Shown: positions 1 to 43,127, counted from the stretch's first letter. The stretch is 64,000 nt of DNA from Nemertoderma westbladi (GCA_032718475.1 JAUCBJ010005512.1:90270-154269); one strand, 5' to 3'. Notes: generated from the letters alone by a model not told the origin. A program made the numbers and translations.

Positions 1-1214
1 GGGGCTCACTCAACGTGTTGGCGGGCAGTCTACTGTAGAATGTGATACCTTGAAGCAATTCCCACGCAGACACTAGAAGCTCTGTGGAGTTGGTGAAATT
101 ATTTGTTCAAGCAAATTTTCTGGTGAAATCAGTGCATTGAAAACCTTGATGTTACATGGCGGCATTGTTGGATATTAGACTGCGACCATTTTCTAGAAGA
201 GAATGCTGGAGAGTCCCCTATTATATTAATATTATAATATAATTAATAATATATACTATAATCTAATATTTTGTATAATATAATATCTATATAATAATAA
301 TAATAATCTGTAATAAATATAATATATAATCTAATATAATATAATATTAATCTAAATATAATATTCTATATAATATAAACTAATATTTTGTCAAGGAGAT
401 GCATCATGGTATTATATGCTACAGTACAACATTTGCGATGATAAAATATATTTGTGGTAGGCCTACATCACATTCATTTATAATTTCTGAGATTGCCAAG
501 ATAAGATCCCTTTCGAATGGTTGCTGCTCTTTGTAACGCTTTCCAGGAGTCATGAGTTATTGGAGTGATAGATAGATTGATTGATTGATTGAGCCCATAG
601 GACTCGTATAATATCCAATATAATGATGTAATAAATTTAAACCTATACCTAACACGATTAAACTAAAATATTTAATGAGAGCATGCACGTGTTACCAACC
701 CAACCCACCCCCCTGAGGCCTTAGGATAATGACTGTACGATATTGTTTAGTAGTTACAACTGCCTAAGTCTAGTTAGTAAATCTTCAGTATAAATCTAAA
801 GAAAACAATTGCACCCGAATTCCGACTTCAACCAAAGTACTAACATCAGCAAAGCATAGCTTATCCGCCGAGGTGAGCACTGTAAATGTGAGAAATAAAA
901 TAACACTGTGCATTAAAAATTTACTTTATAGTCATTTTGAAATTCATTGCGAACAATTTATATTTCTTAAACAGAAATTTATAAACAGAGAGAAGAAGAA
1001 TAATCGTTATATGGAAATCATTACGGTACACAAATAAGTGAAGTAAACAAAGGCGATTCTGGCTTTTTTTGGTTATTATTGTTGGTTATTATTGAGTCTA
1101 TGTGGCTCTCGAGAGATTGCAAATGAAAATTCATCATAGAATTATAGATAGGATAATCAATGGAACTGTACTAATACTTTTCATTTAGTAAAAATTGGTA
1201 AAGAACGATGCACG

Positions 1215-1940
1215 TTATGAATCATAGGTGTTTAGGATGTAGTTTTGAATTTTAGTTTTGAATTGTGGCAGGGAAGTGCATTGTTTAATATCCGTCTGAA
1301 GCTCGTTCCATAATGCAGGGCCTTGGTACATGATACCGCTCTTAGCTAATGCTGTTTTATATAGGGGCAAGTGATAATTAGCAGCATTTCTTGTTGGATA
1401 AGAGTGTACCTGTCGATTGAGTATCAGTTTGGAACTCAATTCGAGGATGTTCTATGTTTATAGATTAATTTGACACATTGTAACCGATAGGAATCCTGAA
1501 GTTTTAGTACTTTTAAATATTTGAAAAGTGGTTCGGCGTGAACTGTTTTGGATTTCAGTGAGACGACACGACACGTATTATTTTATTCTGCAATTTTATC
1601 AGTGGTTTAAGAGTTGACTCTGTCGCACTGAAACCCCACAGTATCAGACCAAAAGATAAGTAAGATGTAAGAGTGTATGATATAACATGATACGTATAGT
1701 TTCAGGAATGAAATGTTTCAGTTTATTGATAATTCCAACGTTTTTAGAAATATTTGATCTTATAATTAAAGTGTGTTTTCCACTTGAAGTCGTTTGATAG
1801 CATAAGACCAAGAAACTTTATTGTGGTTACTTCTGGAATAGAGGCATTATATATTTGTAGATGTGGTAAGATTAAATTTGAAGGACGTTTCTGTTTGAAT
1901 ACCATGAAATTAGTTTTATCAATATTAAGAGTAAGTTGTA
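1215..1940 (-). pseudogene. 3' fragment of a non-LTR retrotransposon (CR1 group, L2/Crack-like) ORF2, 5'-truncated and frameshifted
   Basis: Minus-strand translation gives LTLNIDKTNFMVF...KFLGLML...NVGIINKLKHFIP...LILWG and ends HSYPTRN..YHLP...GIMYQGPALWNEL...TSLPQFKTKIQNYIL. This is the typical post-RT C-terminus of CR1-group LINEs. Confidence 0.8.
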
Positions 1941-3639
1941 TGTCACCTTCATTTTATGTAGGTAGTGAATGTACAGTATATATTGAAGGCAGCTAAGGTA
2001 CTGTATATGAAAAACACTCTGAAAAACACAATTCTGACGAGTTGCCATGGGATCTTGAAACTAAAAACATAATGCATTTTTTTCCGGATATTCGATATAG
2101 TGGGGGTGGAGGTTGATTTAATGACGCTCCGGAAATTATATAGCCCGTTTCTAGTTAAAGTTACCCGTTGCCATGTCAACTACAAGCAAGCAAGTAGTGC
2201 ATACTATATTGCTTATACTGACTTGATATATTGGTGGTAGACTCTGATCCCATGACGCTAAGACCATTGCATATGGATTACGCTCGTTTAAAGCCTGTTG
2301 CTAAGGACATTGTCAATACTGTGAACTTGAAGGTCGTTTTCACTTTGGTTGCGATGGTATTTTCAAAAAACTAAAATCATAAAACGGCTGGCCCTGATGG
2401 GATATCGAACGAATCTCTAAAGTTCGGCTTAGGTGTCCTTCTTTCTTCCCTTTCTACTAGCTCTCTTCTCAGCCTGCTTCTCACTTGCAAAGTGCCCAGT
2501 TGCTTGGTTGACATTAGTATCACCTGCCACTGTACAAAGGGGAGGGATTTAAATCCTCCCCAGCTTCGTATCGTGCGTTTACTGTCCTGTATGCTCAAAA
2601 CATACACGACAGTTCTCTATAATAGACTATATACCGGTACTGTACGTGGGCTGAAGCACACAGAATACTGCCAGATTGCCAGTATGGCTTCAGGAGAGGC
2701 CGCTCTGCGTTACATGCTGCTACAGCACTTCTGGCCGTTATCCACTTTGCTTCGAGTACACCCCGTGTGTTTGTCGATTACTCGAACCCTGCAAACCACC
2801 AACGTTAATCTAACGTTGGGTTTATATGTCAAGACATCATAGGTTTAAAATTAACAGTTAGAATTTAACCAAAAACCTATGTGAAAATACTTTAGAATTC
2901 TGCCATTTTTTAACGTTAATTTTGAAAGTAATTTTACGTAAAAAATATACAAAAATATCAGACAATACCACATTTTTTAACGTTAATCAACGTTTATTTT
3001 GTAACGTTAATTATTAACATTAATATAGCATTAATTTACGTCAAAATTTAACAATGATCAACCCTGAATCATCAGTAAGTAGGCTTACATAAACGCATTG
3101 TCGGCCTGACCATCACGTAATTATGCACTGTTATTTTAGGCTAAATTATATTTTTTTAAATATTATTTTAAAACTTTTGTTCCTAGTCAGCATTAATGTA
3201 CCAGTAGACCCAATGATCAAACTGTAGGACAAATGGTTGAATTCAATGATGTGACAATTCCATTGTTATGATCGTTCTGACGATTTCCAATCGAGTCTCA
3301 CTCAAATAGCTATCTGATTTTTTCTATCTGGTGCCATATGGGGAGGGTCGAAATAGTGAGTATTATTACTGTTTATTACTATAAAAATAGTTGTAATAGT
3401 TAAAAATACTGTAGGAACCTGTCATAATGATTTTATTATACCAGACAGACCTTAGCCTTTAGAACCCACTTCTTTTATGCACAATCCATTACAGGCATGA
3501 GATTTCTTCTTAATAATTGTTTTCCTCACGTGTACGGGCATGTAAGCTACAAAAACGTTAAACATATACTAGACAATATTATGTATTATATTCTCCCATA
3601 TTTTTCAAAGATTGGAAAATATTACAGCTGGCAAATGAG

Positions 3640-3870
3640 GACGCAATCAAAATTAATCCCTCTCCAGGGGAAAATCGACGCAAATAACGGCTGGGCTGAG
3701 GTTGATGATACTCGCTAAAATAACATTGTAACCTGTTCTGTTGACTTTACAGCAGTTTATCGTTTGTTTGGAATAGCGTGCCACTGTGACCTGCGCCCCA
3801 GTACCTATCCAATGGATCCCACCACATGATTTACCGGAGAAGAAGCTGCTGGAGAGCTTCCCCTACGTGC
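3640..3870 (+). repeat. Old interspersed repeat (unclassified, SINE- or MITE-like), copy 1
   Basis: Shares gcaatcaaaat..atccctctc.aggggaaaatcgac and tgtaacctgtt..gttgacttt..cgtgccactgt.acctgc with inverted copies at 7503-7567 and 9880-10007. gctggagag..cccct is also seen near 206-220. Confidence 0.55.
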
Positions 3871-4446
3871 ATCTGTCTCTCCTATGTAGCGGCCAGACAC
3901 GCTGTAACCTGTGCAGGAATCCTAACCACTGCGTCAACTTTTAAACTGCGCAATGAACCGATTGTTGGCCGCCTAACTCTTTTAAACTCTTAAATTATCT
4001 TATCCTAATTACTACTAATTAACCCTCTCTCTATAAACTATAATGTGTTTTTGTGTTCTTTGCCTTAGTGTATATTTTATATACAGAAGTAATAGTACAA
4101 TAGAAACCCCAACCTACTGTATGGTGGTATAATAAAAGTCCTTATTTAAAAAAAACTAAATATGCAATTAAATTCTTCATATCCAAAATAGTAATCTTCC
4201 ATTAAATTTCAACTCGTCATATTTACTATAAGAGCTGTTGCTATGACAATTTCCTCCGTTGCTATGTTTAAGACCCTTTAAAAAACCAGCCCAACCATTG
4301 GCGAAGTCTACCCAAATTTTTAATAATGTCCCATATCTGTACTAAACATCCATGTAGGGTAGCTCAGTCATATAAAAAATTCCTAAGGGGTTATAGGCTG
4401 AAGCCTTATTAACACTTTTCCCAGATGGAATGGGGAAGTATAATGT

Positions 4447-4481
<35 letters not shown>

Positions 4482-5417
4482 CTGTTTAATTCTCTAAAAT
4501 CAAATAAGTGAAAATAAAGTTATACATATAACTTTAGGTCAATACAGAGATGGCACACTCAGCCATGCTTATAAAGAGCACCACAAAGTGATTAAGTAAA
4601 ATACAGTATGGCTATAATTAAAACACAAGGAGAACATATGATACTTAAAAATATATTAAATCGGAAAAGCTACCTACAGTACAGTATGTACTTGTACAGT
4701 ACAGTACAAGCGATGCAGTTTATTAGTAGAATCGTCACTAGCTACTCAATGAGGTGGCCATAGGACATCATACATATGGAATCCTTCCAGTTCCCTTTAC
4801 AATGATCAAGTAAGTTAATATTATTGATTGCCTTGCGGAATGTTGGTAAACTGGGGCACCGCAAATAAGTCGTCGCAGACTATTTGCGACTTCCGCAATA
4901 ATATGCGAGTTACAGTACTTGGGCCACGTTTCCTATAACCAACCACTCAACCAGTAACACGCAGTCTGTAGATGTTTGTCTTATATTTTTAAACATTAGG
5001 ATTTTTTTGTCTATAACAATAAGGATCAGTCTGAGCTCAATAGCTAGTCAGTCATTCATTACAGCATTACACATTACTGCATTACCTGTAGGGGTTAATC
5101 AGTCTGTCTGCAGGCTGCTGGTCTGTAGTCAGGTAGTTTACAGCACAGGCAACCTGCACTGCGACTGCCTGACTGCAGGAGTACTGGAACTGGAACTGGA
5201 GTAAAACTGCAGTAGCATAGCAGTAGGCCTACTGCTACTGCAGTAGTCCCTATACTGCTATACAGCTATAGTTCCTGCAGTCCTAGTCCATGTGTGTGTT
5301 ATCCCTACAGCACAGTCCCTATCTGCCTATGCTGCGCTGCTATATGCCATCATTGCAGCATTCATCAGTTGATTGCATTGCCGCGTCGTTCCCGTAGCGC
5401 CGTAGGCTTATCAGCTT

Positions 5418-6773
5418 ATGGTTATGGAAAATTATTCGCAAAACCTACCCGAAACCAACCCGATTTATACCCAATACAGAGGCGGGATCAATCCCGGTAG
5501 AGCTCCCTGTGATACGAACTCGATGGATCCAGGAGGGCTAACACCAGCCCAGTTAGCGCATCGAGAGAAACAACAAAGTATTCTTAACGAAATGAAACAA
5601 ATGTTATTCCCTAGCAACCCGGTTTCTTCTGGGGAATACCTTTATGTTAATTCTCAGCAAACTGAAATATATACCGGTACTGGGAACTTTATGAATCCCC
5701 ACTACCCGGCGCCAGCGACAGGAAATCCCACCAATCATAATTTAGGCTTAGCTAATTCTGGTGTAAATCCCTGTCGTTTCGATAATCTAACAGTCTACGA
5801 AGATAACGGTCGATTCCATAATTATAATTCCTCGGCCCCGTTGCGCAATGACTGTAGGCCCACCGATCATTCTTCTAGAAGAAACCCGTCTTACCATAAC
5901 GAAAACTTCAACCGTGAATTCGGCCAAACGCCGGCCGATTTACACCAACAAATTGGCTATACTAACGGCTACCGGGAAGTCACGAGCCATCCACCACGCC
6001 GCGTTCGCGAGAGTTGGAATCCCGCAACTAATAAACCGAGCTCCCTCCAACTACTCGGTCAGATGTGTCGCGATACATCGTACACGGACGCAACCCCACT
6101 GCCGCCCACCGCTGCACCACAACCCACCGCTGCACCGCAACCCACCGCTGCGTCGGTAACCAACCCTTATCATCACCAGTACACACAGAATCACCACCGG
6201 GACTTCCATATCCATCCGCAATACGGTGGTACTAACGGTTGTCAGGATAACCAGATGGTTTTTAACGAATTCCCTTCTGACGTTTTTCCGGGAATTTTCG
6301 GTGAATCTGAAACTGATTGGAATTACAACGACTGCGAAAATTTTGACGATTTCTCTTGGTGCGAGCAAATCGCCGATATAATATCCTCGCCTGGTAGGGA
6401 AGAGACGTCCAGTCGCAACGAGTCATTCTACGCGGTGCCACAACAGTGGCAACAGCAGCGCGTAGTCCCACCCCCGCCACATACAGCGCCACCCTCCACC
6501 GAGCAGTGGCGCCCTGAGCGGCCCAAACAATGGCGGCAATGTGTGGCGCCGTCGAATACTGTGGCGCCGCCCGGGGAGCAGAGGTGGCGTTCTTCTGGGA
6601 GGCCGCAGCCCGAGCAGTGGCGCAGCCAACCCGAGCAGTGGCGCGCCCAACCCGAGCAGTGGCGCACCGGACGCCAACCCGAACTCCCCAACCCCCTAGA
6701 GACGCTGCAGACCCTGGCTATTCTCGCCTCCGGCGGTAGGAATCCGCCAAAAAGTAATTTAGGAAAAATTTAA
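5418..6773 (+). CDS. Intronless 451-aa low-complexity protein with N-terminal BCL9/Legless HD2-like beta-catenin-binding motif and C-terminal (E/Q)QWR repeats
   Basis: Long, GC-richer ORF within AT-rich flanks. Residues 40-66 GLTPAQLAHREKQQSILNEMKQMLFPS align without gaps to BCL9 HD2 as recalled (GLSQEQLEHRERSLQTLRDIQRMLFPD). No other BCL9 domain was recognised, so no gene symbol is given. Confidence 0.65.
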   Translation: MVMENYSQNLPETNPIYTQYRGGINPGRAPCDTNSMDPGGLTPAQLAHREKQQSILNEMKQMLFPSNPVSSGEYLYVNSQQTEIYTGTGNFMNPHYPAPATGNPTNHNLGLANSGVNPCRFDNLTVYEDNGRFHNYNSSAPLRNDCRPTDHSSRRNPSYHNENFNREFGQTPADLHQQIGYTNGYREVTSHPPRRVRESWNPATNKPSSLQLLGQMCRDTSYTDATPLPPTAAPQPTAAPQPTAASVTNPYHHQYTQNHHRDFHIHPQYGGTNGCQDNQMVFNEFPSDVFPGIFGESETDWNYNDCENFDDFSWCEQIADIISSPGREETSSRNESFYAVPQQWQQQRVVPPPPHTAPPSTEQWRPERPKQWRQCVAPSNTVAPPGEQRWRSSGRPQPEQWRSQPEQWRAQPEQWRTGRQPELPNPLETLQTLAILASGGRNPPKSNLGKI

Positions 6774-7502
6774 TCGATTGGATAAAAAAATTAGCTGACA
6801 GATTATCAATTTTTTTTAATAACCTCAAAAGGTTTTCAAATAATATCATACCTTTCTCTAGAATTGTTGATGACTTGAAAATTTAATTTAATTGAAAAAC
6901 GGCTAAGTTTTTGGAATAACAATTTAACCCGTTTTCCCCCTATTAGTTAAATTTAGTGCTGTTCATTTGGGAATTCCGTTCATCTGCATTGACCGGTGTA
7001 TTTTCCGCCAATGCTGCAATCAATCTCTATGCCTGTTGACTATCTACATTTAATTGCTTAAAACTAATAATTAATATCGCCTTAAACCATAAAACTTAAA
7101 TCTTAAACAAAAAAAAAACTTAAACCATAAAACTTAAACAAAAAAAATAAAATCTTAAACCATAAAACAAAACATTAGGGATGGGCTGATTGTTTTATTT
7201 AATTAATAGTAATCGAGAGTTAGAAAGCGATCAAATCAGCATCATTTTATATAATTCCTTAAAAAAAACATTTATTAAATTTCATATCGAACGAGCTTTT
7301 TTCATTGGATATAAAACAGCTGATATTAACTGAGTTTTTAGTAAATCTTTATCAAATTATATAAAGAACAATATTTAATATTTAGTAGAAAGCGAGTGTG
7401 GAATTAAATAAACTGGGGGGGGGGGGGGGGGGGGGGCTGGACGCAAATCCCACTGCGGCAAATTAATTTTTCGTATCGCTCGCAAATAATAATTTAAGGG
7501 AA

Positions 7503-7567
7503 AGGAGCAGGTTACAGTGGCACGTTATTCTACCCAAAACAATAAACTAAAGTCAACTGGTTACAGT
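7503..7567 (-). repeat. Old interspersed repeat, partial inverted copy 2
   Basis: Reverse complement resembles 3727-3800 (tgtaacc..gttgacttt..gaata.cgtgccactgtaacctgc). Confidence 0.5.
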
Positions 7568-9879
7568 TTGAAATTATAATTTGGTGAGCATTTATTATTT
7601 AATACACAATAATGCTGATGTAAATATGGTATATTATAGTTGTAATAACGTAACTTACCGACCAATCCTATGCTTATTATTTTTATTTAATTAGTTATAT
7701 TATAATTAATGGGACACCAAAGATCCAATTAATGTGCGTACCGTAGATTCTTTAGAAATACTCCATTTATTTATCATTATTTGACATTTAATTATTGACA
7801 ATTCATGGCATGTTGTATTTTTCTTAAAATTTCAATATTCGGTTACCAGTAATTCAGTATGTGATTGTTATGCAACAGCTTTGGGTGCGGGAAACGAACG
7901 TAACTAATTAATGTAATTAAAGCTTCGGATACTGTAAATAAAAGTGTTTAAACTGCCAATATTTGTAATAATTATTATTCTTTTAAAAATTCACTTTTTT
8001 ATCCGCAAAAATGCGGTCATAATAACTATATACGTCGTTGTTTATAAAATAGCACATTATAGCGTTACGGCACAGGTGATTTTGATTAATAATTGAAGTA
8101 AATAATAGAACCAGGGCCGTAAAAGCTTTAAAGTGCTAAGTATATATGAACAATGGCGAATATAATTCTGTTTATTTGAGGGGAATTATTTGTAGTTATT
8201 CACCCAAACTTACTGGACATACTGCGATGTAAAGTAGGAAAATATGTCGCCCTGGTGATTTGGTAGTGCGAAATTAATTCCGGATACAAATAAATAAAAT
8301 ACTTTTTTGTTCGCATGTGCGACAAAAAAAAGTAATTATCCAATCAAAATTCTAAAATTGCGGTAATAAATTATTTATCCAATCAACGATCCAGAAGATT
8401 TTTCTTTGATTTCTCATTATTTATTCTAGAACAGTAATTAAATTAAGTTGGTAATTATTAATAAATTTAGCATTAAAATGTTTAGTTGTAGGATCTTTTG
8501 AACAAGTTTAATGAGTTTAATCAAATTTTTGGTAAGATTATTTGATTAACGTTCTGGAATGTCACCTTCACCTTCAATAACACAGTGTAGCTAATTAATA
8601 GTAGCTATGTAGTATTATTTAATTACAAAATGGTGCAGAATAGACATCAAATTTACGATAACTTTGTTACTTCAAATTCAACAGGGAATATTTTAAAGAA
8701 AGATTAAATGGAAGCTGCTGAGGTGCTCAATGTACCTTCAACTTCCAATATTTGTATTTAATATTATTCATAATTAATATTAGATTATTCTAAATGTGGG
8801 TTGATTTTGGGCAAAAAGTCGTTCTTGTCAGAATTTATGCGGAGAAAAGTGAATTTTAAAAAGAAAACAACATCTTCTACAAAAATAATGTGAATTTATT
8901 CCTCAGCTACGCCTCCTCGGATAAATTGTGCTCAATCTACTATTCCTCGAAAATGCGGATAAAAAAGTCGGACAAAAAAAATAGTACTAACTTTTTGTAA
9001 AAGAAATAGTTATATTACAGCATAATATTAATGAAAATTATGATTTGTAATTTAACCTTCGTTATTAAATTATTCAATAATTCAATAGTCTACTAATTTA
9101 ATCTTATTGCTTTTTCATTAAATTTTTTTCTTAAATTCTTATTGATTGTTGAATAATTATTGTAAACCGAATGAAATTCAACCGATTTACTTGTTTTTTA
9201 TTAATGCTAAATGCGTCAGTTTTTTGGCAATAAAACATATTTTTTGAAAAATGTCATAAATATTCAAAGAAATATTCATACTTCTTCGTTGTCACAAACA
9301 TTAATAATTAAATTATACGCCCACTAATTATTATACCGTTACGTAAATGGTCACCTAGACTTCGTGGCTCGCCCCACAAGATTGATCATACCAGATGTAC
9401 CTTTGTGACTATTTACATCAATACAGAAAGCTGCCCTCTGCTTTATACTGAGATCTGAGAACGAAGTCGGGACTTTTGAAGTGAACTCACTATATACCGG
9501 TTATTCACTCTCAACTTAACATTTTTGATACATACAGTAGGTTTTGGTGTATATTATTATAATGTTAACTTTGGTGTGTGATTTATCCTTTGATGCCTTT
9601 TTTTCTTTATTCCTATTGCCATTTTGAGCAGTTGTGTTACCGTTGAATGCCTTTATAGATGTGCCTTATGTTTCTAATTGTAAGTTATTTGTCGAATCTA
9701 ATAATCTAATTAATTATTAATACATAACTCTGGATGATATATTGCCCGTTGAATCATTATATTTTTTTTCACCGTACAGTAAAGCTAAAGACTATTGTAT
9801 TTGAAACCATATTTTAAACAAACATAACAATGACAACTCCGCGAATTACCAAAAAAAGGGAAATGAGCATATTACAGTG

Positions 9880-10007
9880 ACATGTCAATCCAACCAAAAC
9901 AATAAATGAAAGTCAATATAACAAACAGGTTACAGTATTACTTTTTGTCATAATCAGCAGGCAATTGGGTCGATTTTCCCCTTGAGAGGGATATATTTTG
10001 ATTGCAT
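9880..10007 (-). repeat. Old interspersed repeat, partial inverted copy 3
   Basis: gtcgattttccccttgagagggatatattttgattgc is the near reverse complement of ~3643-3679. Confidence 0.55.
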
Positions 10008-10417
10008 ATTATTTTGTTTTAAACTGGCTAGACTATCCTTCGACGACTTCATCCATACACACCTGCTGCATAATGTACGAGTGTACCTAAACTGTAACAG
10101 GCCAAGAAACTATTGTTTAAACCGGATCAGTCTCTTCGGGAATTTGAATTGAATGTTTATTTATTTTTACCCATTTTATACATATATAATATATACGAAA
10201 TTAATTCACACCTTATATAATATAATACATAGGTAAAGGAAGGTAGCCAATGGGATTGCTAGTGAACTGTTGCCCACCGAAGGGGCATACTGTAGTAGGT
10301 AGATTAGGAGAGGGTTCGATTGGTTAGGAAGCTATGCGCAGGTTAGGATAGAGCAGGGTAGGTTAGGATAGTACGGTGGCCCATAAGTGACAGCCATACA
10401 ACATTTATAAAACAATA

Positions 10418-10781
10418 TTAACATTTAGGTTATCAACATTAACATTTAGGTTATCAACATTAACATTTAGATTATCAACATTAACATTTAGGTTATCAAA
10501 ATTAACATTTAGGTTATCAACATTAACATTTATGTTATCAACATTAACATTTAGATTATCAACATTAACATTAAGGTTATCAACATTAACATTTAGGTTA
10601 TCAACATTAACATTTAGGTTATCAACATTAACATTTAGGTTATCAACATTAACATTTAGGTTATCAACATTAACATTTAGGTTATCAACATTAACATTTA
10701 GGTTATCAACATTAACATTTAGGTTATCAACATTAACATTTAGGTTATCAACATTAACATTTAGGTTATCAACATTAACAT
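10418..10781 (+). repeat. Subterminal 21-bp tandem array (acattaacatttaggttatca)n, left arm of the IS3EU inverted repeat
   Basis: About 17 direct units are visible; mirrored at 13762-14058. Confidence 0.95.
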
Positions 10782-11068
10782 ATAGTACCGATAGGCCTAT
10801 ATATTATTCGTTACAGAAAACTGAAACAACAGGAACTTACAGTACCGGTATATGATTCGCCGCAAATTACACACCATTTACCCTACCGGTATCAACATTT
10901 TAGTACCGGTACATTATTTGATACTGAAAACTGAAACAACAGGAACTTACAGCACCGGTACCGGTATCTATCGAACCCTAGACTAGATACTAGTATGGAA
11001 TTTTGAAATACATACAGTAGGCCTGTGTAGCTCTTAAAATTTGAATAAATCTGGACTTACAAAATACA

Positions 11069-12064
11069 ATGTACTGCCATATATGTGGAAATATAATCGA
11101 AGGCGAACACACTAAATACTGTCACAATTGTGGGAGTGCATTGTCTCATTCAATTATGCATATAGATGAGAATGATTTTTTGCAAACTGAAACTCTCACT
11201 GGTGTCTGTACCAGCACCAGCACTCCTGTTGTTAACCGCAGTGGTAGTGATAAGATTAATCGGAAACGTACCATTCTTTCATTTGATGAATACATAAGTT
11301 CTAAAGGGAAACAATGGAAAGAACGAGTACCCGGTGGGATTGGTGGCTCAAGCCCTGGCAATCGGGCAGGATCTAGTGATGTATCAATCGGGATTGGAAT
11401 GATATATTGGAACGACGTCGATGGCAAATTCAAGGTTCGACGCGGTAAGAGGCTAGCACTATCAGTTAATGAAACGGATAAGTATAATGATTTGTTGAAT
11501 AAGGCCTTAAATAAGTGGAAGGCATATTGTCCTGATTGTTATGATGAACATATGTCTTATTGTTTAACTTTTGAAAATGGCATTACTGCAGAATTTCTCC
11601 CAGGTAGTAAGGAGATTTTTAATTTAAAGATATATAAGGAAAATGTCGGAAAACAGTACAGCCGGATCACCCTGTATTTATGTAGCCAAGATGATAGGGA
11701 AGATTTTGAAGGGATTCAAATAAGAGAGTCTGTGGTTGAGTCTGTGAGCGATACGCAACAGGTAAATGAACAAGTATGTGAGAATAATAGGCCTACTGAT
11801 TTTGAAAACACAACATTAGCACAAGATAATCCCGTAATCGAATCAGTTTCCAGCAAGGGACTGGTCACAACATTGGGACAACAAGATAATCCTATTATGC
11901 TTGGTTACTTAGATGAAGATTTCCCATTGCAGTATTTGTGTGAAATTAAACCATGGAAATATGATAATATTACAAGTTTTATTGATTCTCTATCTAACTC
12001 AGTTAATCAGGAAGTTCAATTCGAAGGAAGTTCAAGAGAAACGATTGTCAGAACTAGCCCTTAG
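11069..12064 (+). CDS. IS3EU accessory ORF (N-terminal zinc ribbon), 3' end displaced by a hAT fragment
   Basis: CHICG...YCHNCG zinc ribbon and a conserved-looking LPG....F.L..YK...GK.YSRITLYLC block; lies inside the TIRs. Confidence 0.65.
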   Translation: MYCHICGNIIEGEHTKYCHNCGSALSHSIMHIDENDFLQTETLTGVCTSTSTPVVNRSGSDKINRKRTILSFDEYISSKGKQWKERVPGGIGGSSPGNRAGSSDVSIGIGMIYWNDVDGKFKVRRGKRLALSVNETDKYNDLLNKALNKWKAYCPDCYDEHMSYCLTFENGITAEFLPGSKEIFNLKIYKENVGKQYSRITLYLCSQDDREDFEGIQIRESVVESVSDTQQVNEQVCENNRPTDFENTTLAQDNPVIESVSSKGLVTTLGQQDNPIMLGYLDEDFPLQYLCEIKPWKYDNITSFIDSLSNSVNQEVQFEGSSRETIVRTSP

Positions 12065-12268
12065 TATAGAGTCAGAAACATTAGATAGCTTAGAATTAGA
12101 TGTAGTAATTACCGAATTTGCTTCACTTAAAACACAAGAATAAAAATCATTAAATTTGCAACTTTCTTATTTTGTGTAATTTTTGTTAGGGGGGGGGGGG
12201 GGGGGGGGGGGGGGTGGCGCTCCCAGTGGGCCTTGCCCCCGGGCGCAAAAAACCTAGCTCCGCCCCTG
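12030..12268 (+). mobile_element. 3' end fragment of a hAT DNA transposon
   Basis: Encodes QEKRLSELALSIESETLDSLELDVVITEFASLK, like a hAT C-terminal dimerisation tail. Ends in cctagctccgcccctg, the reverse complement of a CAGGGGCGGAGCTAGG hAT-type TIR. Confidence 0.7.
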
Positions 12269-12543: not shown

Positions 12544-13670
12544 TCACTGCCCCTGTTCCGCCACGTGCATTAGAGTTTCATAGTTCGTAAGGGCGGTTCC
12601 TACATCAGATGAGAATGGCAGTTGTTTGATAGTAAATACCATGGATAAATAGTCCTGATAGATATTTCTATACTGTGGCACTATGATATGGTCCATTAAA
12701 GAATTTAAATCATGAACCGAGATCTCTGAATTGAAACATCTTCTGAAAGATAGTACAAACAATCCGGACGTCCATTTACTCTACTATACTGGGACTTTCT
12801 TATTAGGTGTGTGTTCCACTGTTCTTTCACGAGATTGAGTTCGTCCTGAATTATCCCAGAAAAACAGTACCATAAGCACTCTTTTGCTAGTGGGGAACTC
12901 AAGTCTATGACACCGCGTGCTTCTAGATCACCGAAAAAATTCCGCCACCACAATGATCGTGTTTTCGAAAACTGAGACCACCAGGCCTCGATACGCTGAT
13001 TATGCTGGGAGGAAACATAACGGTGAGCGTTTATATTTTGATGTAGAAAGGCTTGAATAGAAGCAGCGATACAGTTTTCTGTACCGAGATCGCTAATTAG
13101 TTTTTGGGGATAACCTAAGTTTCTAATGGTGTTGAGAAACAAAGAAGCAATGTTATCGGGGCAGTTATTTGAACGGATCACATTTAACCAAAGTATCTTG
13201 CGGCTATAACCATCAATACAGCCGTGAATAGGGAATCCCCAGGGTTTGAGCTTGTCGTACCCATCTATATGCCAAGTATAGTTGGGTCCTCGACTGTAAT
13301 ATACCCTTCTTTTGAGTTTGTGGCGTTTACGTAGTTCAGTCCCATCAGGGTCAATCTCTTTTAGAAGTTTCTGTACTAACAGACGTGGAACAACTACTCC
13401 CTGTAAACGAAGCGCGTGCCAAACAGTGCGGTATCCTGCAAGACTCCCTGGTCCTTCAATTACATTCTTTATTCTCTCACGAATTGCCTCTTCAGAGATC
13501 AGATGCAGATGATTATTTCCTCTACGTCTATATAAACCATAATGTAGTAGGCGCCTTAGCAATGTCCTAATACTCAAATTTAAACCGAAAGCGTGTAAAA
13601 ATGTTACAATTTCTTTATACGAAAATCCACAATTAAAATAATGAGTGATAAGTTCCTCTTCAGATGCCAT
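12544..13670 (-). CDS. IS3EU DDE transposase (integrase core); ORF 12705-13670 plus a probable frameshifted C-terminus to 12544
   Basis: WHIDGYDKLKPWGFPIHGCIDGYSRKILWL, SDLGTEN and NQRIEAWW supply D-D-E, with an HTH-like N-terminus. The overlapping ORF 12544-12762 looks like the continuation. Confidence 0.85.
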
Positions 13671-13761
13671 ATTACTCTGTGCCGGTACCTAATGTAATGG
13701 GGGTGTAGGTTGAATAAATGCAAAGTTGATAATAAGGAATAAATGAATAATGAATATAATA

Positions 13762-14058
13762 ATGTTGATATCTAAATTTTAATGTTGATAACATAAATGT
13801 TAATGTTGATAACCTAAATGTTAATGTTGATAACATAAATGTTAATGTTGATAACCTAAATGTTAATGTTGATAACCTAAATGTTAATGTTGATAACATA
13901 AATGTTAATGTTGATAACCTAAATGTTAATGTTGATAACCTAAATGTTAATGTTGATAACCTAAATGTTAATGTTGATAACCTAAATGTTAATGTTGATA
14001 ACTAAATGTTAATGTTGATAACCTAAATGTTAATGTTGATAACCTAAATGTTAATGTT
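13762..14058 (-). repeat. Subterminal 21-bp tandem array, right arm of the IS3EU inverted repeat
   Basis: (tgataacctaaatgttaatgt)n, the reverse complement of the left array. Confidence 0.95.
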
Positions 14059-14124
14059 GTTTTATAAATGTTGTATGGCTGTCACTTATGGGCCACCGTA
14101 GGATAGGGAGTAACACACGATATA

Positions 14125-16728
14125 ATAGGATAGGATAGGATAGGATAGGATAGGATAGGATAGGATAGGATAGGATAGGATAGGATAGGATAGGATAGGA
14201 TAGGATAGGATAGGATAGGATAGGATAGGATAGGATAGGATAGGATAGGATAGGATAGGATAGGATAGGATAGGATAGGATAGGATAGGATAGGATAGGA
14301 TAGGATAGGATAGGATAGGATAGGATAGGATAGGATAGGATAGGATAGGATAGGATAGGATAGGATAGGATAGGATAGGATAGGATAGGATAGGATAGGA
14401 TAGGATAGGATAGGGTAGGGTAGGGTAGGATAGGATAGGATAGGATAGGATAGGATAGGATAGGATAGGATAGGATAGGATAGGATAGGATAGGATAGGA
14501 TAGGATAGGATAGGATAGGATAGGATAGGATAGGATAGGATAGGATAGGATAGGATAGGATAGGATAGGATAGGATAGGATAGGATAGGATAGGATAGGA
14601 TAGGATAGGATAGGATAGGATAGGATAGGATAGGATAGGATAGGATAGGATAGGATAGGATAGGATAGGATAGGATAGGATAGGATAGGATAGGATAGGA
14701 TAGGATAGGATAGGATAGGATAGGATAGGATAGGATAGGATAGGATAGGATAGGATAGGATAGGATAGGATAGGATAGGATAGGATAGGATAGGATAGGA
14801 TAGGATAGGATAGGATAGGATAGGATAGGATAGGATAGGATAGGATAGGATAGGATAGGATAGGATAGGATAGGATAGGATAGGATAGGATAGGATAGGA
14901 TAGGATAGGATAGGATAGGATAGGATAGGATAGGATAGGATAGGATAGGATAGGATAGGATAGGATAGGATAGGATAGGATAGGATAGGATAGGATAGGA
15001 TAGGATAGGATAGGATAGGATAGGATAGGATAGGATAGGATAGGATAGGATAGGATAGGATAGGATAGGATAGGATAGGATAGGATAGGATAGGATAGGA
15101 TAGGATAGGATAGGATAGGATAGGATAGGATAGGATAGGATAGGATAGGATAGGATAGGATAGGATAGGATAGGATAGGATAGGATAGGATAGGATAGGA
15201 TAGGATAGGATAGGATAGGATAGGATAGGATAGGATAGGATAGGATAGGATAGGATAGGATAGGATAGGATAGGATAGGATAGGATAGGATAGGATAGGA
15301 TAGGATAGGATAGGATAGGATAGGATAGGATAGGATAGGATAGGATAGGATAGGATAGGATAGGATAGGATAGGATAGGATAGGATAGGATAGGATAGGA
15401 TAGGATAGGATAGGATAGGATAGGATAGGATAGGATAGGATAGGATAGGATAGGATAGGATAGGATAGGATAGGATAGGATAGGATAGGATAGGATAGGA
15501 TAGGATAGGATAGGATAGGATAGGATAGGATAGGATAGGATAGGATAGGATAGGATAGGATAGGATAGGATAGGATAGGATAGGATAGGATAGGATAGGA
15601 TAGGATAGGATAGGATAGGATAGGATAGGATAGGATAGGATAGGATAGGATAGGATAGGATAGGATAGGATAGGATAGGATAGGATAGGATAGGATAGGA
15701 TAGGATAGGATAGGATAGGATAGGATAGGATAGGATAGGATAGGATAGGATAGGATAGGATAGGATAGGATAGGATAGGATAGGATAGGATAGGATAGGA
15801 TAGGATAGGATAGGATAGGATAGGATAGGATAGGATAGGATAGGATAGGATAGGATAGGATAGGATAGGATAGGATAGGATAGGATAGGATAGGATAGGA
15901 TAGGATAGGATAGGATAGGATAGGATAGGATAGGATAGGATAGGATAGGATAGGATAGGATAGGATAGGATAGGATAGGATAGGATAGGATAGGATAGGA
16001 TAGGATAGGATAGGATAGGATAGGATAGGATAGGATAGGATAGGATAGGATAGGATAGGATAGGATAGGATAGGATAGGATAGGATAGGATAGGATAGGA
16101 TAGGATAGGATAGGATAGGATAGGATAGGATAGGATAGGATAGGATAGGATAGGATAGGATAGGATAGGATAGGATAGGATAGGATAGGATAGGATAGGA
16201 TAGGATAGGATAGGATAGGATAGGATAGGATAGGATAGGATAGGATAGGATAGGATAGGATAGGATAGGATAGGATAGGATAGGATAGGATAGGATAGGA
16301 TAGGATAGGATAGGATAGGATAGGATAGGATAGGATAGGATAGGATAGGATAGGATAGGATAGGATAGGATAGGATAGGATAGGATAGGATAGGATAGGA
16401 TAGGATAGGATAGGATAGGATAGGATAGGATAGGATAGGATAGGATAGGATAGGATAGGATAGGATAGGATAGGATAGGATAGGATAGGATAGGATAGGA
16501 TAGGATAGGATAGGATAGGATAGGATAGGATAGGATAGGATAGGATAGGATAGGATAGGATAGGATAGGATAGGATAGGATAGGATAGGATAGGATAGGA
16601 TAGGATAGGATAGGATAGGATAGGATAGGATAGGATAGGATAGGATAGGATAGGATAGGATAGGATAGGATAGGATAGGATAGGATAGGATAGGATAGGA
16701 TAGGATAGGATAGGATAGGATAGGATAG
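14125..16728 (+). repeat. (GGATA)n pentanucleotide microsatellite, ~2.6 kb
   Basis: Nearly perfect; the only interruption seen is three TAGGG units at 14411-14425. Confidence 0.99.
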
Positions 16729-20022: not shown

Positions 20023-23000
20023 ATGGCTAACACAAAACAAACACTGTCAGATAGTCTCCTAGAAAGAACAATCTGTGACTCAGATAAGAGTATAGAACAT
20101 CTGAGACCAAAGTCCAAGTCCCCTCCTACTGTAAGAAAGGTCATCCCTACAGTAGTAGTATCAGACCCTAGGCTAGTAAAGCACCATAGGTCTATTATAG
20201 GCACTAGGGCTCAAGTTAAGCGGGACCAAGAGGCAGCTGTTAAACAGCAGCAGCACCCGAGCCGAGAACTTATTTCTCAATGGCAGGATAACTCTAGTAG
20301 TTCAGACACTGAAGAGTTGACGCCCGAGATCGGAGCAAGGATGGCAGAAGCGGTTTATCCAGATCCACTTCTAATTCTTCCTGGGACACTAGAGATCCAG
20401 CTGTATGGAAGAGGTCGGCAGCAGGATATGTCCAGGGATTCTTCAGCTCTTTAGAGCGATTAGAAGAACACTTATTTGAACAACGCCAAGGACCTCAAGA
20501 GCAGGGAGAGCTGCTTTATCAAGTGCAAGAACGAATTTTATGGATCAGACTAATCCTTTCAGCCTTTGAGGAAGCCTCGAAGAGAAGCCAAGACACGTCG
20601 TTGCAAGTGGCCGTAAAGACTTGGTTCCAACGGGTGAGTCTTAAAGTCCAGGGAACGACACAATGGAAAGTTCAGCTAACGGAGCGCATGACCCACGGAG
20701 AATCAACAGACGCTACCTTTTCTCAGGTGGAAGGCGAAGCTACATCCGAAAAACCTCAGAAGAAGGATGCTACGGACATCTATCTGTCGGACTATCAACG
20801 ATTTATAGGTGACAAAGAGCTAAGGAGACGGCTAGCTGGACTTCACCCTAATAGTGAGGGAGCCAAACTCGTTAGATGCGGAAATATTAGCCGCGGAGCA
20901 GGCTAAATTTGATGAAAGCATCCTCATCGCTATGGAACAGGAAGAACAAATAAAGAAACGGCAAATAGAAGACCAAAAGTTGGCAGCAGCGGCAGAAGCT
21001 GAAAGAAAGGCGGCGGAAGCTGAAAGAAAAGCGGCAGTGGCAGAAGCAGAACGGAAGGCATCTGAAGCGACTACCCAACTAGAGCTGGAGAACCTTCAGG
21101 CGAAACAAGATTACTTGAATAAACAAAGGACAGCTACTCAGATGCAACTACCGAGTCGATCTACTCCCAGAAGACAGGGATTTACCTCCTCCGATGAGGG
21201 TGATACAACAGATCCCGAGGGGAAAGGTAATAAATCTCATTCAAGCGGACGTAGAAGAACGCCACGCCGTCAGAAGTTACCTAATTTACCTCCTGCGGTG
21301 AGAAGGCAACTAGCTAATCTAGACTTAAGTAATCAAGAACCTACAGACCAAATTATTAGAGTAGAAAGACTCCCTACTATAGTAGATGAGCCTGAAATAA
21401 TTAGGCCTGTCATTGAAGCCACTCCGGTGATAGAGACCCCTGTACTTCCAGAACCTAACTCTAAATTCCCTTTGCACAGTACTAAACTACATGTGCCCAG
21501 TAGACAAGCCCCAGAACCACATTCAGTCCTGGATGCCGAGCAAGACATAAATGACTCGTCTCCCGTCGCCCCTACGTGTCACCCCGCTACCATGTTGGCG
21601 GCTCCCGCTTCGGCGGTTGAGTGGGTGGACGAGGGACGGCGGGGGATGAATCAGTTGCTCGGGCAGCTGGAGGACCATAAGAACAGGTCTTTCCAGCAGG
21701 TCCGAGAATTGGAAGGGACTGTTCAGCAGTTAAAGGGAACAGTAAGAGAGAGTAGGTTAGAGTTGCAAGAAGTACAACAAAGTATCGCTTTAGAGCGAGA
21801 TAAATTAGTAAATATACAAATGGGTATACCACCACCCCCTGTAACAATGTGTCAGCCCGTTAGGTCTGAAGTATTTCATGGGCAAGGTGTGGAGCCTACA
21901 CGCATCTATACTGCTAGTGAAGTAGAAACTCCTATAGTAAACCCTATTAAGGGTAATTATAAACCCGTTGATAATGATATCCCATACAGATCTGATCATA
22001 ATCCGAGAAATTTATATACCGATAACTCGATATTAAATAATACGATGGCTCAAGAAAGTTTTATACATCAAATGGCTAGAACCGAAGCTTGTCAAGCGGT
22101 AAAGGTGGGAGAGGTCGTCAAGTTCAATGGAGATGAGATGAAATGGTTACCTTTTAATGAATATTATAAAGATAACATACAGAACTCTGTACTATCCAAT
22201 GGAGAGAAACTTAGATTCCTCATCGAGTGCCTGGAAGGACCTCCCAAATTAAAGGCGTTAAAGTTTATTGGACATCCAGATGGATTAAGACAAGTTTGGG
22301 ATACACTAAACATAAGGTATGGTAATAGGACTAACATAGCTAGGTATTTATATGCGAAATTATTAGCGCCCCGAAAGTTTCTTAGCAGTGGGATTATAGA
22401 GTTTTCCGATGAGATTCAGGAGATCTGTAGACAGCTAGATTGGTTAGGTAAGTCTCAAGAATACCAGAGTTCTATGGTTGTTGGAGCCGTAGCATCTACT
22501 TTACCAAAGGGTGGAGTAGGTACGCATTGGGACAAAAAGGTTCTCTATATGATGGACCAGCAACAAAGAGACCCTACCATGGCTGATCTCATGTCATTCT
22601 TAAATGGAGAGGTAAGATTACAGCTCCTAAAGCAGTCCAGAGAGAAGACACCGGAAAGTAAGGTGAGTGAAAAACCCGTTTCTAGAAGAAAGGTAACACC
22701 AGTGTGTTATACGGACGATGGCGAAAGCCAAACCTTATACGAGGAGAACAGCGGTAAGGACATCGAAAGATCGTATTATGTCAATAAAATAAGGAAAGAC
22801 GTAAGTAAATCTAAGTCTCGAACCAGTGACAGGAGAGAACAGGTAACAACTCCTCCTACGTCTCCTAAGAGAATTCATGGAAGAAAGCCCGAGGAAAGAA
22901 CCAGTGTGCACAACACAACACAGGTTAAAGTAAGTAACATCAAACCCAAGTGTGCATTGTGCGATGGGCCACATCGCTTGAGTGAGTGTGATGAATTCTT

Positions 23001-43042: not shown

Positions 43043-43127
43043 TTCGGTAGTTGTAAGTCAAGTAAAGTGAGTGTCAAAGTATCGAGTTTACCGTATTTAT
43101 ATCTAAACGGTACTAATTACAGTCATA

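What the first reader, a model, noticed from the sequence alone, without database searches (positions are those of the whole stretch)
5523..5615. BCL9/Legless HD2-like beta-catenin-binding helix in an orphan intronless ORF
Seen: GLTPAQLAHREKQQSILNEMKQMLFPS near the N-terminus of a 451-aa single-exon ORF. Known (recalled): BCL9 HD2 is GLSQEQLEHRERSLQTLRDIQRMLFPD and binds beta-catenin; the HRE and L..(I/M)..MLFP positions are kept without gaps. True BCL9 is much longer, multi-exon, and has a Pygopus-binding HD1 upstream of HD2, which I cannot see here. Inference: a retrocopy, or TE/virus-borne cargo, that keeps only HD2 and could act as a Wnt/beta-catenin decoy or a rewired cofactor.
Basis: partly seen in the sequence, partly recalled or inferred. 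Interest (0 to 1): 0.75.

Follow-up and report, generated by a model that had tools for sequence, protein, structure and literature searches.

The report
Intronless gene keeping only BCL9's beta-catenin helix
An animal genome carries a single-copy, intron-free, transcribed gene whose mostly disordered 451-residue protein keeps only the beta-catenin-binding helix (HD2) of the Wnt cofactor BCL9, so it would likely dock on beta-catenin without recruiting Pygopus.

Summary
Window 5418-6773 (+) is an intact 451-aa ORF. Residues 40-68 hit Pfam BCL9 (PF11502, the HD2 helix) at E 8.2e-9, 35.6 bits against a cutoff of 25. All five published beta-catenin hot-spot positions are kept (H, R, L, I>M, L).

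One public run (X3) proved to be cDNA: a contig carries the SMART 5' cDNA primer joined at about 5074. Its contigs are colinear with the genome from 5074 to 7384, with no joints. In-frame stops inside that transcript (5403, 5370, 5244, 5202) rule out an upstream HD1 exon. Depth in three genomic runs fits a single copy, and no transposon or viral context was found.

The rest of the protein has no family and is predicted disordered. It contains an acidic-aromatic patch, PEQWR repeats and a C-terminal helix. No HD1 or HD3 motif was detected.

A 10-nt direct repeat (4991-5000 and 7170-7179) brackets the unit, directly after a 75-nt A-rich tract. This is a moderate retrocopy signature.

Verdict: a real, expressed, HD2-only BCL9 derivative, probably an old retrogene. 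Beta-catenin binding, and whether it acts as a decoy or a cofactor, are inferred. The parent gene, conservation and binding could not be tested.

The parts
4991..5000 (+). Left copy of the 10-nt direct repeat AAACATTAGG (candidate target-site duplication)
   Evidence: It occurs only twice in the 64-kb window, here and at 7170. Loose control: 33 of 300 shuffles reach a 10-mer. Position-fixed control: 3 of 408 zones.
5074..5417 (+). 5' leader of the mRNA. The cDNA 5' end lies within a few bases of 5074. It contains a 35-codon upstream ORF (5290-5397, other frame) and in-frame stops at 5403, 5370, 5244 and 5202. It is strongly structured.
   Evidence: The X3 contig carries 24 loose letters that match the SMART 5' cDNA primer, then window 5074-5507. 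The primer string is documented in 10.1101/2021.03.17.435796. uORF and stops. Fold -136.4 kcal/mol, z -4.32, 0 of 100 shuffles as stable. An 8-nt insertion polymorphism lies after 5208 in X2, X3 and X4.
5418..6773 (+). Single-exon ORF of 451 aa (a second ATG lies at 5424)
   Evidence: It is intact and colinear in cDNA run X3 (5074-5507, 5478-5537, 5539-6940, with no gaps in the ORF) and in genomic run X1 (4812-7403, 0 gaps).
5535..5621 (+). BCL9 HD2, the beta-catenin-binding helix, residues 40-68
   Evidence: PF11502, E 8.2e-9, above the gathering cutoff. Gap-free alignment to PDB BCL9 HD2 chains. AlphaFold helix 43-63, the best-scoring part of the model at pLDDT about 60. Hot-spot residues H48, R49, L56, M59 and L63 (papers).
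6258..6392 (+). Acidic, aromatic-rich segment, residues about 281-325 (candidate activation or partner-binding region, inferred)
   Evidence: Composition: residues 251-350 carry net charge -12 and 16 aromatic residues. No family hit. Predicted disordered apart from a 4-residue helix at 319-322.
6495..6668 (+). Trp-Arg repeats (PEQWR type)
   Evidence: TRF 6609-6668, period 21, 2.9 copies. Repeat family D3. The only hit among 1.84 billion representatives is to this low-complexity part, residues 396-432.
6693..6728 (+). Predicted C-terminal helix, residues 426-437 (LETLQTLAILAS)
   Evidence: AlphaFold single-sequence model, pLDDT about 50-56.
6774..7384 (+). 3' untranslated region covered by cDNA contigs
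   Evidence: X3 contigs 5539-6940, 6942-7001 and 6972-7384. The 3' end was not determined. AATAAA at 7146, ATTAAA at 7274 and 7403.
7095..7169 (+). Degenerate A-rich tract (64% A), a candidate remnant of a retrocopy poly(A) tail
   Evidence: TRF arrays 7081-7169.
7170..7179 (+). Right copy of the 10-nt direct repeat AAACATTAGG

Best explanation
This is a single-copy, intronless, transcribed gene whose 451-residue, largely disordered protein carries a genuine BCL9-type HD2 helix near its N-terminus and no HD1, so it is predicted to bind the first armadillo repeat of beta-catenin without recruiting Pygopus. It probably arose by retroposition of a BCL9 transcript. Shown here: the ORF, the HD2 family match, retention of the five published contact positions, transcription on the + strand from about 5074, colinearity with the genome, in-frame stops that exclude an upstream coding exon, and single-copy depth. 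Inferred: (1) the helix docks on beta-catenin as human HD2 does; (2) it would occupy the site the canonical BCL9 uses, and so would modulate Wnt output, either as a competitor or, through its acidic-aromatic segment and C-terminal helix, as a Pygo-independent adaptor; (3) it originated as an old, 5'-truncated processed copy of BCL9 mRNA, spanning 5001-7169.
For: - HD2: PF11502, E 8.2e-9, 35.6 bits against a cutoff of 25, with a gap-free alignment to 3sl9_C and 2gl7_C.
- Contact residues: human H358 and R359, and L366, I369 and L373, are the two hot regions (passages in PMC9698307 and PMC6506245). Here they are H48, R49, L56, M59 and L63, so 4 of 5 are identical and 1 is conservative.
- AlphaFold predicts a helix at 43-63.
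- Expression: in X3, a contig bears the SMART 5' cDNA primer joined at 5074. X3 depth is 365-763 on 5074-6940 and zero on flanking unique DNA, which genomic runs X1, X2 and X4 cover evenly.
- Gene structure: there are no joints and no loose ends between 5085 and 7104.
- No HD1: in-frame stops lie at 5403, 5370, 5244 and 5202, and only 39 residues precede HD2. PDB searches with residues 1-41 and 69-451 find no BCL9 HD1 chain at E<=10.
- Single copy: the contig 4812-7403 has the lowest depth among neighbouring contigs (20.6, 25 and 48.5).
- Retrocopy signature: the 10-nt repeat occurs only at 4991 and 7170, the second copy directly after a 75-nt tract that is 64% A. Only 3 of 408 control zones match.
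- ORF length is far beyond chance.
Against:
- No relatives of the protein were found anywhere, so conservation and purifying selection are unshown. The only variant I could place inside the ORF is 6650 A>G in X3, which is synonymous.
- The duplication is weak by the loose control: 33 of 300 shuffles reach a 10-mer somewhere in the zones.
- The A-rich tract is degenerate, and cDNA coverage runs past it to 7384.
- No parent BCL9 gene could be sought.
- The mRNA has a strongly structured leader and an upstream ORF, which may limit translation.
- The run's record does not call X3 RNA. Its cDNA nature is my inference from the primer string and the coverage pattern.
- X2 and X4 contigs carry 17 and 19 gap letters over 4812-7403, and I could not place all of them.
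Confidence: 0.5

Rival explanations
1. It is the organism's own, sole BCL9/Legless orthologue. It would be strongly diverged and secondarily intronless, with HD1 and HD3 lost or changed beyond recognition, and it still serves as the regular beta-catenin cofactor.
For: HD2 is the only part of BCL9 that general profile libraries model. BCL9 proteins are otherwise low-complexity and fast-evolving (established knowledge). No second BCL9-like sequence could be sought, because no genome is held. No transcript at least 80% identical to the ORF appears in X3 apart from this one (depth 763.2 from a single contig).
Against: [quoted passage not shown] Here HD1 is excluded upstream by in-frame stops. No Trp followed within 15 residues by an F/Y doublet exists. 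At 451 aa it is shorter than Legless, whose HD1 alone lies at residues 321-355. The flanking repeat and A-rich tail suggest an inserted copy.
Confidence: 0.2
2. It is a processed pseudogene or evolutionarily young retrocopy that happens to be transcribed. Its ORF would be open through recency or chance, and it would have no function in Wnt signalling.
For: The retrocopy signature. No detectable conservation. A structured leader with an upstream ORF. A parent that is 80-95% identical in the genome is not excluded, because the genomic runs were laid only at 95% likeness.
Against: The ORF is intact in two independent data sets (X1 and X3). At 455 codons it is far longer than chance allows. All five contact positions of HD2 are kept. 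The A-rich tail is degenerate, and the locus has no copy of at least 95% identity in the genomic runs and no transcript of at least 80% identity in X3. These points argue for age, and age without decay implies constraint.
Confidence: 0.17
3. It is cargo of a transposable element or virus.
For: The window is dense in mobile elements: BEL/Pao polyproteins at 34742-43057 (-) and 20313-27834 (+), and an integrase at 12708-13688 (-). High-copy short repeats lie at 3632-3693, 7496-7556, 9856-9916 and 9955-10016, and one inverted pair (79% over 62 nt) brackets the locus.
Against: The unit 4812-7403 has single-copy depth, while the flanking repeats reach thousands. No mobile-element domain was found in the six flanking ORFs scanned. 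There is no other copy of 5001-7169 in the window and no viral contig match.
Confidence: 0.04
4. It is a chance or convergent amphipathic helix in an unrelated disordered protein.
For: The domain is short (29 matched positions). The top PDB row is an unrelated designed ankyrin at a similar E-value.
Against: The Pfam score is 10 bits above the curated cutoff at E 8.2e-9. The match is gap-free and includes GL..QL.HRE and L..x..MLFP.
Confidence: 0.04

Closest known systems
BCL9 / BCL9L (B9L) / Drosophila Legless, adaptors of the Wnt enhanceosome (Pfam PF11502)
   Same: An HD2 helix above the Pfam cutoff, with the H-R pair and the L/I(M)/L hydrophobic face that contact beta-catenin armadillo repeat 1. 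The remainder is disordered and rich in Pro, Gln and Asn.
   Different: No HD1 (Pygo PHD binding) and no HD3 motif (ChiLS binding) were detected. It is 451 aa with HD2 at residues 40-68, whereas human HD2 lies at 351-374 (PMC6506245 passage). It is a single exon.
Engineered HD2 peptides (SAH-BCL9, hsBCL9CT-24) and truncated BCL9/B9L constructs
   Same: They are isolated HD2 helices that bind beta-catenin and displace BCL9 (PMC6506245 passages). C-terminal truncations of BCL9/B9L act as dominant negatives (PMC5352222 passage). A natural HD2-only protein would work in the same way if it lacks effector parts.
   Different: Those are synthetic or experimental, whereas this is a genomic, transcribed gene. 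It has about 380 further residues of unknown function that may add activity and not merely block.
HD1-deleted BCL9/9L alleles and Pygo-independent BCL9 function
   Same: BCL9 without HD1 still binds beta-catenin. A B9L mutant lacking HD1 gives partial rescue of Wnt responsiveness (PMC5352222 passage). BCL9 acts largely independently of PYGO in some tissues (PMC7434441 abstract and passages).
   Different: Those proteins keep HD3 and the C-terminus that bind ChiLS and TLE. Neither is recognisable here.
ICAT (CTNNBIP1) and Chibby, small natural beta-catenin-binding inhibitors
   Same: The concept is the same: a small protein that binds beta-catenin and blocks a cofactor site.
   Different: They are unrelated in sequence and bind other surfaces of beta-catenin. 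No BCL9-site natural competitor is known to me. My searches for 'BCL9' with 'retrogene' (1 paper, irrelevant by its listing) and for BCL9, HD1, HD2, Pygopus and evolution (18 papers, 15 listed) showed none in their titles or abstract starts.

Membership tests
Pfam BCL9 (PF11502; HD2-bearing proteins) | HD2 profile match at or above the gathering score | tested here: met
   35.6 bits against a cutoff of 25, E 8.2e-9, residues 40-68.
Pfam BCL9 (PF11502; HD2-bearing proteins) | Beta-catenin contact residues (human H358, R359, L366, I369, L373) | tested here: met
   H48, R49, L56, M59 and L63: 4 identical and 1 conservative. The residue list comes from passages of PMC9698307 and PMC6506245.
Pfam BCL9 (PF11502; HD2-bearing proteins) | Physical binding to beta-catenin armadillo repeat 1 | not testable with these tools
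Canonical BCL9/Legless orthologue (HD1-HD2-HD3 adaptor) | HD1: a beta-strand plus helix with an invariant Thr, N-terminal to HD2, binding the Pygo PHD finger | tested here: not met
   Only 39 residues precede HD2. In-frame stops at 5403, 5370, 5244 and 5202 lie inside the cDNA-covered leader. phmmer of residues 1-41 and 69-451 against PDB, which holds PHD-HD1 complexes such as 2vpb according to PMC3851687, gives no BCL9 chain at E<=10. AlphaFold shows no strand-helix unit before HD2. Caveat: HD1 is short and no profile for it was available.
Canonical BCL9/Legless orthologue (HD1-HD2-HD3 adaptor) | HD3: a single helix with an invariant Trp and an F/Y doublet further downstream (PMC5352222) | tested here: not met
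   This was a motif-level test only. No Trp is followed within 15 residues by two adjacent F/Y. The only aromatic doublet is FY at 337-338, 23 residues after W314. No HD3 profile or sequences could be obtained.
Canonical BCL9/Legless orthologue (HD1-HD2-HD3 adaptor) | Similarity beyond HD2 to other BCL9 proteins | tested here: not met
   phmmer against 1.84 billion representatives gave 1 hit at E<=0.001, to the PEQWR repeats only. The word-index searches found none. These libraries do hold animal proteomes.
Processed retrocopy / retrogene | Intronless and colinear with its mRNA | tested here: met
   cDNA contigs are colinear from 5074 to 7384, with no joints.
Processed retrocopy / retrogene | A-rich tail followed by a target-site duplication | tested here: inconclusive
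   A 75-nt tract that is 64% A (7095-7169) is followed directly by AAACATTAGG, which recurs only at 4991. The position-fixed control gives 3 of 408 zones. The loose control gives 33 of 300 shuffles. No empty-site copy exists in the window.
Processed retrocopy / retrogene | A multi-exon parent gene elsewhere in the genome | not testable with these tools
   No genome is held and both read-laying runs were used.
Transposon- or virus-borne cargo gene | Multiple copies, element termini or element genes adjoining | tested here: not met
   Single-copy depth. No element domains in the six flanking ORFs scanned. No second copy in the window. No viral contig match.

The most novel reading that the evidence does not exclude
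A domesticated retrogene has reduced the Wnt adaptor BCL9 to its beta-catenin-docking helix and fused it to a new disordered tail. This would give the lineage a genetically encoded competitor for the BCL9 site on beta-catenin, a natural counterpart of the stapled HD2 peptides developed as drugs, or a Pygopus-bypassing coactivator.
Probability: 0.3. Interest if true: 0.75.

Novelty: new variant of a known kind. Interest (0 to 1): 0.5.

Why it matters
BCL9 links beta-catenin to Pygopus and the Wnt enhanceosome. Its HD2-beta-catenin interface is a drug target because blocking it spares cadherin binding. I found no natural protein described that consists of HD2 without HD1 and HD3. If this gene's product binds beta-catenin, it would show how evolution can tune Wnt output by copying a single short docking helix. 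It would also give a natural reference for competitor design, and a test of what HD2 does when uncoupled from Pygo and ChiLS. If it proves to be a decaying retrocopy, it is ordinary.

Tried and rejected
- **No RNA holder listed** by the look-up of sequencing runs.
- **Organisms B and C.** Runs X6 and X7, and run X8, gave no cover of the ORF at 80% likeness, only A-rich matches at 7105-7172. This is no evidence either way.
- **Spliced leader or upstream exon at 5052: rejected.** By my arithmetic table 2, the loose ends before 5052 and behind 5084 belong to one contig of depth about 1295 that matches only 33 nt of a CATTAC-type repeat. Its 30 letters are absent from the window and from the paper library.
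- **Contig breaks as splice sites: rejected.** The X3 breaks at 5507/5478-5537/5539 and at 6940/6942 fit k=31 bubbles at single-letter variants, with minor branches at depth 5 and 10.8.
- **Homologue searches, all empty.** Near-length (7995 candidates scored, 0 hits). Longer (1 candidate, 0 hits). Exhaustive phmmer (only a repeat hit). Metagenome contigs (27 pattern matches, 0 confirmed). Viral contigs (none). ESM atlas (none).
- **Own genome:** not held.
- **Earlier scan notes:** nothing for this genome or sequence.
- **Organism placement from the BEL/Pao polyprotein.** 10 of the 120 listed hits carry organism names: 4 sea urchin, 1 hemichordate, 2 gastropods, 2 fishes and 1 coral. All listed hits are 35-43% identical, which is too distant to place the organism.
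- **Empty-site search** with the flanks inside the window: none.
- **Complex prediction:** not sent, because no beta-catenin sequence was available. The second structure job and fold search were not used, because the single-sequence model is of low confidence (mean pLDDT 39.4).
- **Weak HD1 look-alike.** YLYVNSQQTE (residues 75-84) resembles HD1 as I recall it. No search supports this, so I dismiss it.

Full report
**Observation.** Window 5523-5615 (+) reads MDPGGLTPAQLAHREKQQSILNEMKQMLFPS. It lies in a 451-aa ORF, 5418-6773 (+), whose frame opens only four codons before the ATG. Pfam-A returns one family at E<=10: BCL9 (PF11502), at E 8.2e-9 and 35.6 bits against a gathering cutoff of 25, with residues 40-68 on profile positions 1-29 of 39. 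phmmer against PDB aligns residues 37-72 without gaps to the BCL9 HD2 peptides of 3sl9 and 2gl7, at E 0.04-0.05. The match is far beyond chance even for a scan of this size (my arithmetic). The 455-codon open frame exceeds the longest frame in 200 random 64-kb sequences of local composition (maximum 271).

**Contact residues.** Passages of two papers name two hot regions in human HD2: H358 and R359 against beta-catenin D162-D164, and L366, I369 and L373 in a hydrophobic pocket of armadillo repeat 1 (PMC9698307; PMC6506245). Through the gap-free alignment these map to H48, R49, L56, M59 and L63. Four are identical and one is conservative. AlphaFold run on the single sequence is of low confidence overall (mean pLDDT 39.4). 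It places its best-scoring element, a helix at 43-63, exactly on HD2. Otherwise it predicts disorder, apart from a short helix at 319-322 and a helix at 426-437.

**Gene structure and expression.**
- No run is on record as RNA.
- When four runs were laid on window 1-12000, three of them (X1, X2, X4) covered unique DNA evenly. One colinear contig spanned 4812-7403 at depth 20.6, 25 and 48.5.
- X3 comes from a different study. It covered 5074-7384 at depth 365-763 and had zero depth on adjacent unique stretches: 1201-2000, 3201-3600, 4401-4800 and 10001-12000.
- In the second lay, the X3 contig over 5074-5507 begins with 24 letters that do not lie on the window. A 21-letter part of them occurs in 86 papers. 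One paper, read as a passage, gives it as the 5' primer of SMART-type full-length cDNA (10.1101/2021.03.17.435796).
- I therefore infer that X3 is cDNA, that the RNA is on the + strand, and that a 5' end lies within a few bases of 5074.
- X3 shows no joints in 4700-7500 and no loose ends between 5085 and 7104. The transcript is therefore colinear with the genome across the whole ORF.
- The leader contains in-frame stops at 5403, 5370, 5244 and 5202, so no upstream exon can extend this reading frame. The protein starts at 5418 or 5424.
- The leader also holds a 35-codon upstream ORF and folds unusually well: -136.4 kcal/mol, z -4.3, and 0 of 100 shuffles as stable.

**Two readings I dropped.**
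- A second loose end before 5052, right after an 'ag', looked like a spliced leader or upstream exon. My arithmetic on the depth bins shows that it, and the loose end behind 5084, are the two sides of one abundant contig (depth about 1295). That contig shares only a 33-nt CATTAC-type repeat with the window. Its letters are absent from the window and from the paper library.
- The short X3 contigs around 5478-5568 and 6942-7001 are assembly bubbles at single-letter variants, not splice joints.

**What is missing.**
- Canonical BCL9/Legless is defined by three elements. HD1 binds the Pygo PHD finger and is a beta-strand plus helix with an invariant Thr (PMC3851687 passages). HD2 binds beta-catenin. 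HD3 binds ChiLS; it is a helix with an invariant Trp and a downstream F/Y doublet, and is stated to be present in all orthologues (PMC5352222 passages).
- Here only 39 residues precede HD2.
- PDB searches with residues 1-41 and 69-451 find no BCL9 chain at E<=10.
- No Trp is followed within 15 residues by an aromatic doublet.
- These are weak tests for such short elements, because no HD1 or HD3 profiles were available. The stop codons in the transcript, however, make the absence of an upstream HD1 firm.
- Outside HD2 the protein matches nothing. The near-length search scored 7995 candidates with no hit and the longer-protein search had 1 candidate with no hit.
- The exhaustive search gave one low-complexity hit, to the PEQWR repeats, among 1.84 billion representatives.
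- The protein libraries do contain animal proteomes, so this emptiness carries some weight.
- The tail is rich in Pro, Asn and Gln. It has an acidic, aromatic-rich stretch around 281-325 and Trp-Arg repeats.

**Origin.**
- Depth shows a single copy.
- The six flanking ORFs I scanned carry no mobile-element domains. The unit has no second copy in the window and no viral contig matches. Cargo of a transposon or virus is therefore unlikely, although the window is full of BEL/Pao and other elements and high-copy short repeats lie nearby.
- The 10-mer AAACATTAGG occurs only twice in the window. One copy is at 4991-5000. The other is at 7170-7179, directly after a 75-nt tract that is 64% A.
- Only 3 of 408 other 150-nt zones share any 10-mer with the 36 nt after that tract. 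By a looser test, 33 of 300 shuffles reach a 10-mer somewhere.
- Together with the lack of introns, this is a moderate signature of a processed retrocopy spanning 5001-7169.
- The genomic runs show no second copy of at least 95% identity, and X3 has no other transcript of at least 80% identity. The tail is also degenerate. If this is a retrocopy it is probably old, and an old intact ORF suggests constraint. A parent of 80-95% identity in the genome is not excluded.

**Mechanism (inferred).**
- The HD2 helix would dock on armadillo repeat 1 of beta-catenin, as in 2gl7 and 3sl9.
- Lacking HD1, the protein cannot bring in Pygopus. It would therefore compete with the canonical adaptor for beta-catenin.
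- Published work shows that isolated HD2 peptides displace BCL9, that BCL9/B9L truncations lacking the C-terminus act as dominant negatives, and that HD1-deleted B9L retains partial activity.
- Whether this protein inhibits or acts as a Pygo-independent adaptor depends on its tail. The acidic-aromatic segment is the sort of sequence that can activate transcription (general knowledge, untested here).
- My probabilities are about 0.5 for the core reading (an expressed, BCL9-derived, HD2-only beta-catenin binder), 0.2 for a diverged sole orthologue, 0.17 for a functionless transcribed retrocopy, and about 0.04 each for cargo and for chance.

**Comparison and novelty.** It is a member of Pfam BCL9 by its HD2. 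It fails the HD1 and HD3 tests for a canonical BCL9/Legless orthologue. I found no description of a natural HD2-only protein or of a BCL9 retrogene (seen as search listings, plus the passages cited above). I rate it a new variant of a known kind and moderately interesting. What it lacks is evidence of conservation, translation and binding. Supplementary files were not consulted for any of the papers.

Noticed in passing
window 10413-10785 and 13760-14059: Two arrays of the same 21-nt unit (17.8 and 14.4 copies, 96% matches) lie in inverted orientation. They bracket a 339-aa zinc-ribbon-like ORF (11045-12064, +) and an integrase-core ORF (12708-13688, -, PF24764 rva_4, E 1.2e-33). This looks like a DNA-type mobile element with minisatellite terminal inverted arrays.
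   Followed up: partly
window 14125-16728: A 2.6-kb pentanucleotide satellite, (ATAGG)n, with about 521 copies at 99% matches. It causes extreme GC skew (0.96) and three long spurious ORFs on the - strand.
   Followed up: no
window 34742-43057 (-): An uninterrupted 2772-aa BEL/Pao polyprotein frame (DUF1759, Peptidase_A17, integrase zinc-binding domain), probably a recently active element. A second, fragmented BEL/Pao copy lies at about 20313-27834 (+). The best relatives are only 35-43% identical.
   Followed up: partly
window 3632-3693, 7496-7556, 9856-9916, 9955-10016: Copies of a very high-copy short repeat. Word depth reaches thousands to tens of thousands in all genomic runs, against about 20-50 for unique DNA. 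Many contig joints and loose ends cluster at 7497-7556 and 9887-9909.
   Followed up: no
window 5074-5417: The mRNA leader is CTGCAG-rich and palindromic, and folds far better than shuffles (z -4.3). An 8-nt insertion polymorphism lies after 5208 in three runs.
   Followed up: partly
window 7415-7437 and 12189-12214: Homopolymer G runs of about 23-26 nt. The first ends the unique contig that holds the gene.
   Followed up: no
window 7540-9631: cDNA run X3 also covers pieces downstream of the gene (7540-7964, 7996-8254, 8568-8764, 8864-9380, 9351-9631), mostly at repeats. Whether they belong to the same transcript is unknown.
   Followed up: no
window 5052-5084: An abundant X3 transcript contig (depth about 1295 by my arithmetic) shares only this 33-nt CATTAC-type repeat with the window. 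Its identity is unknown.
   Followed up: partly
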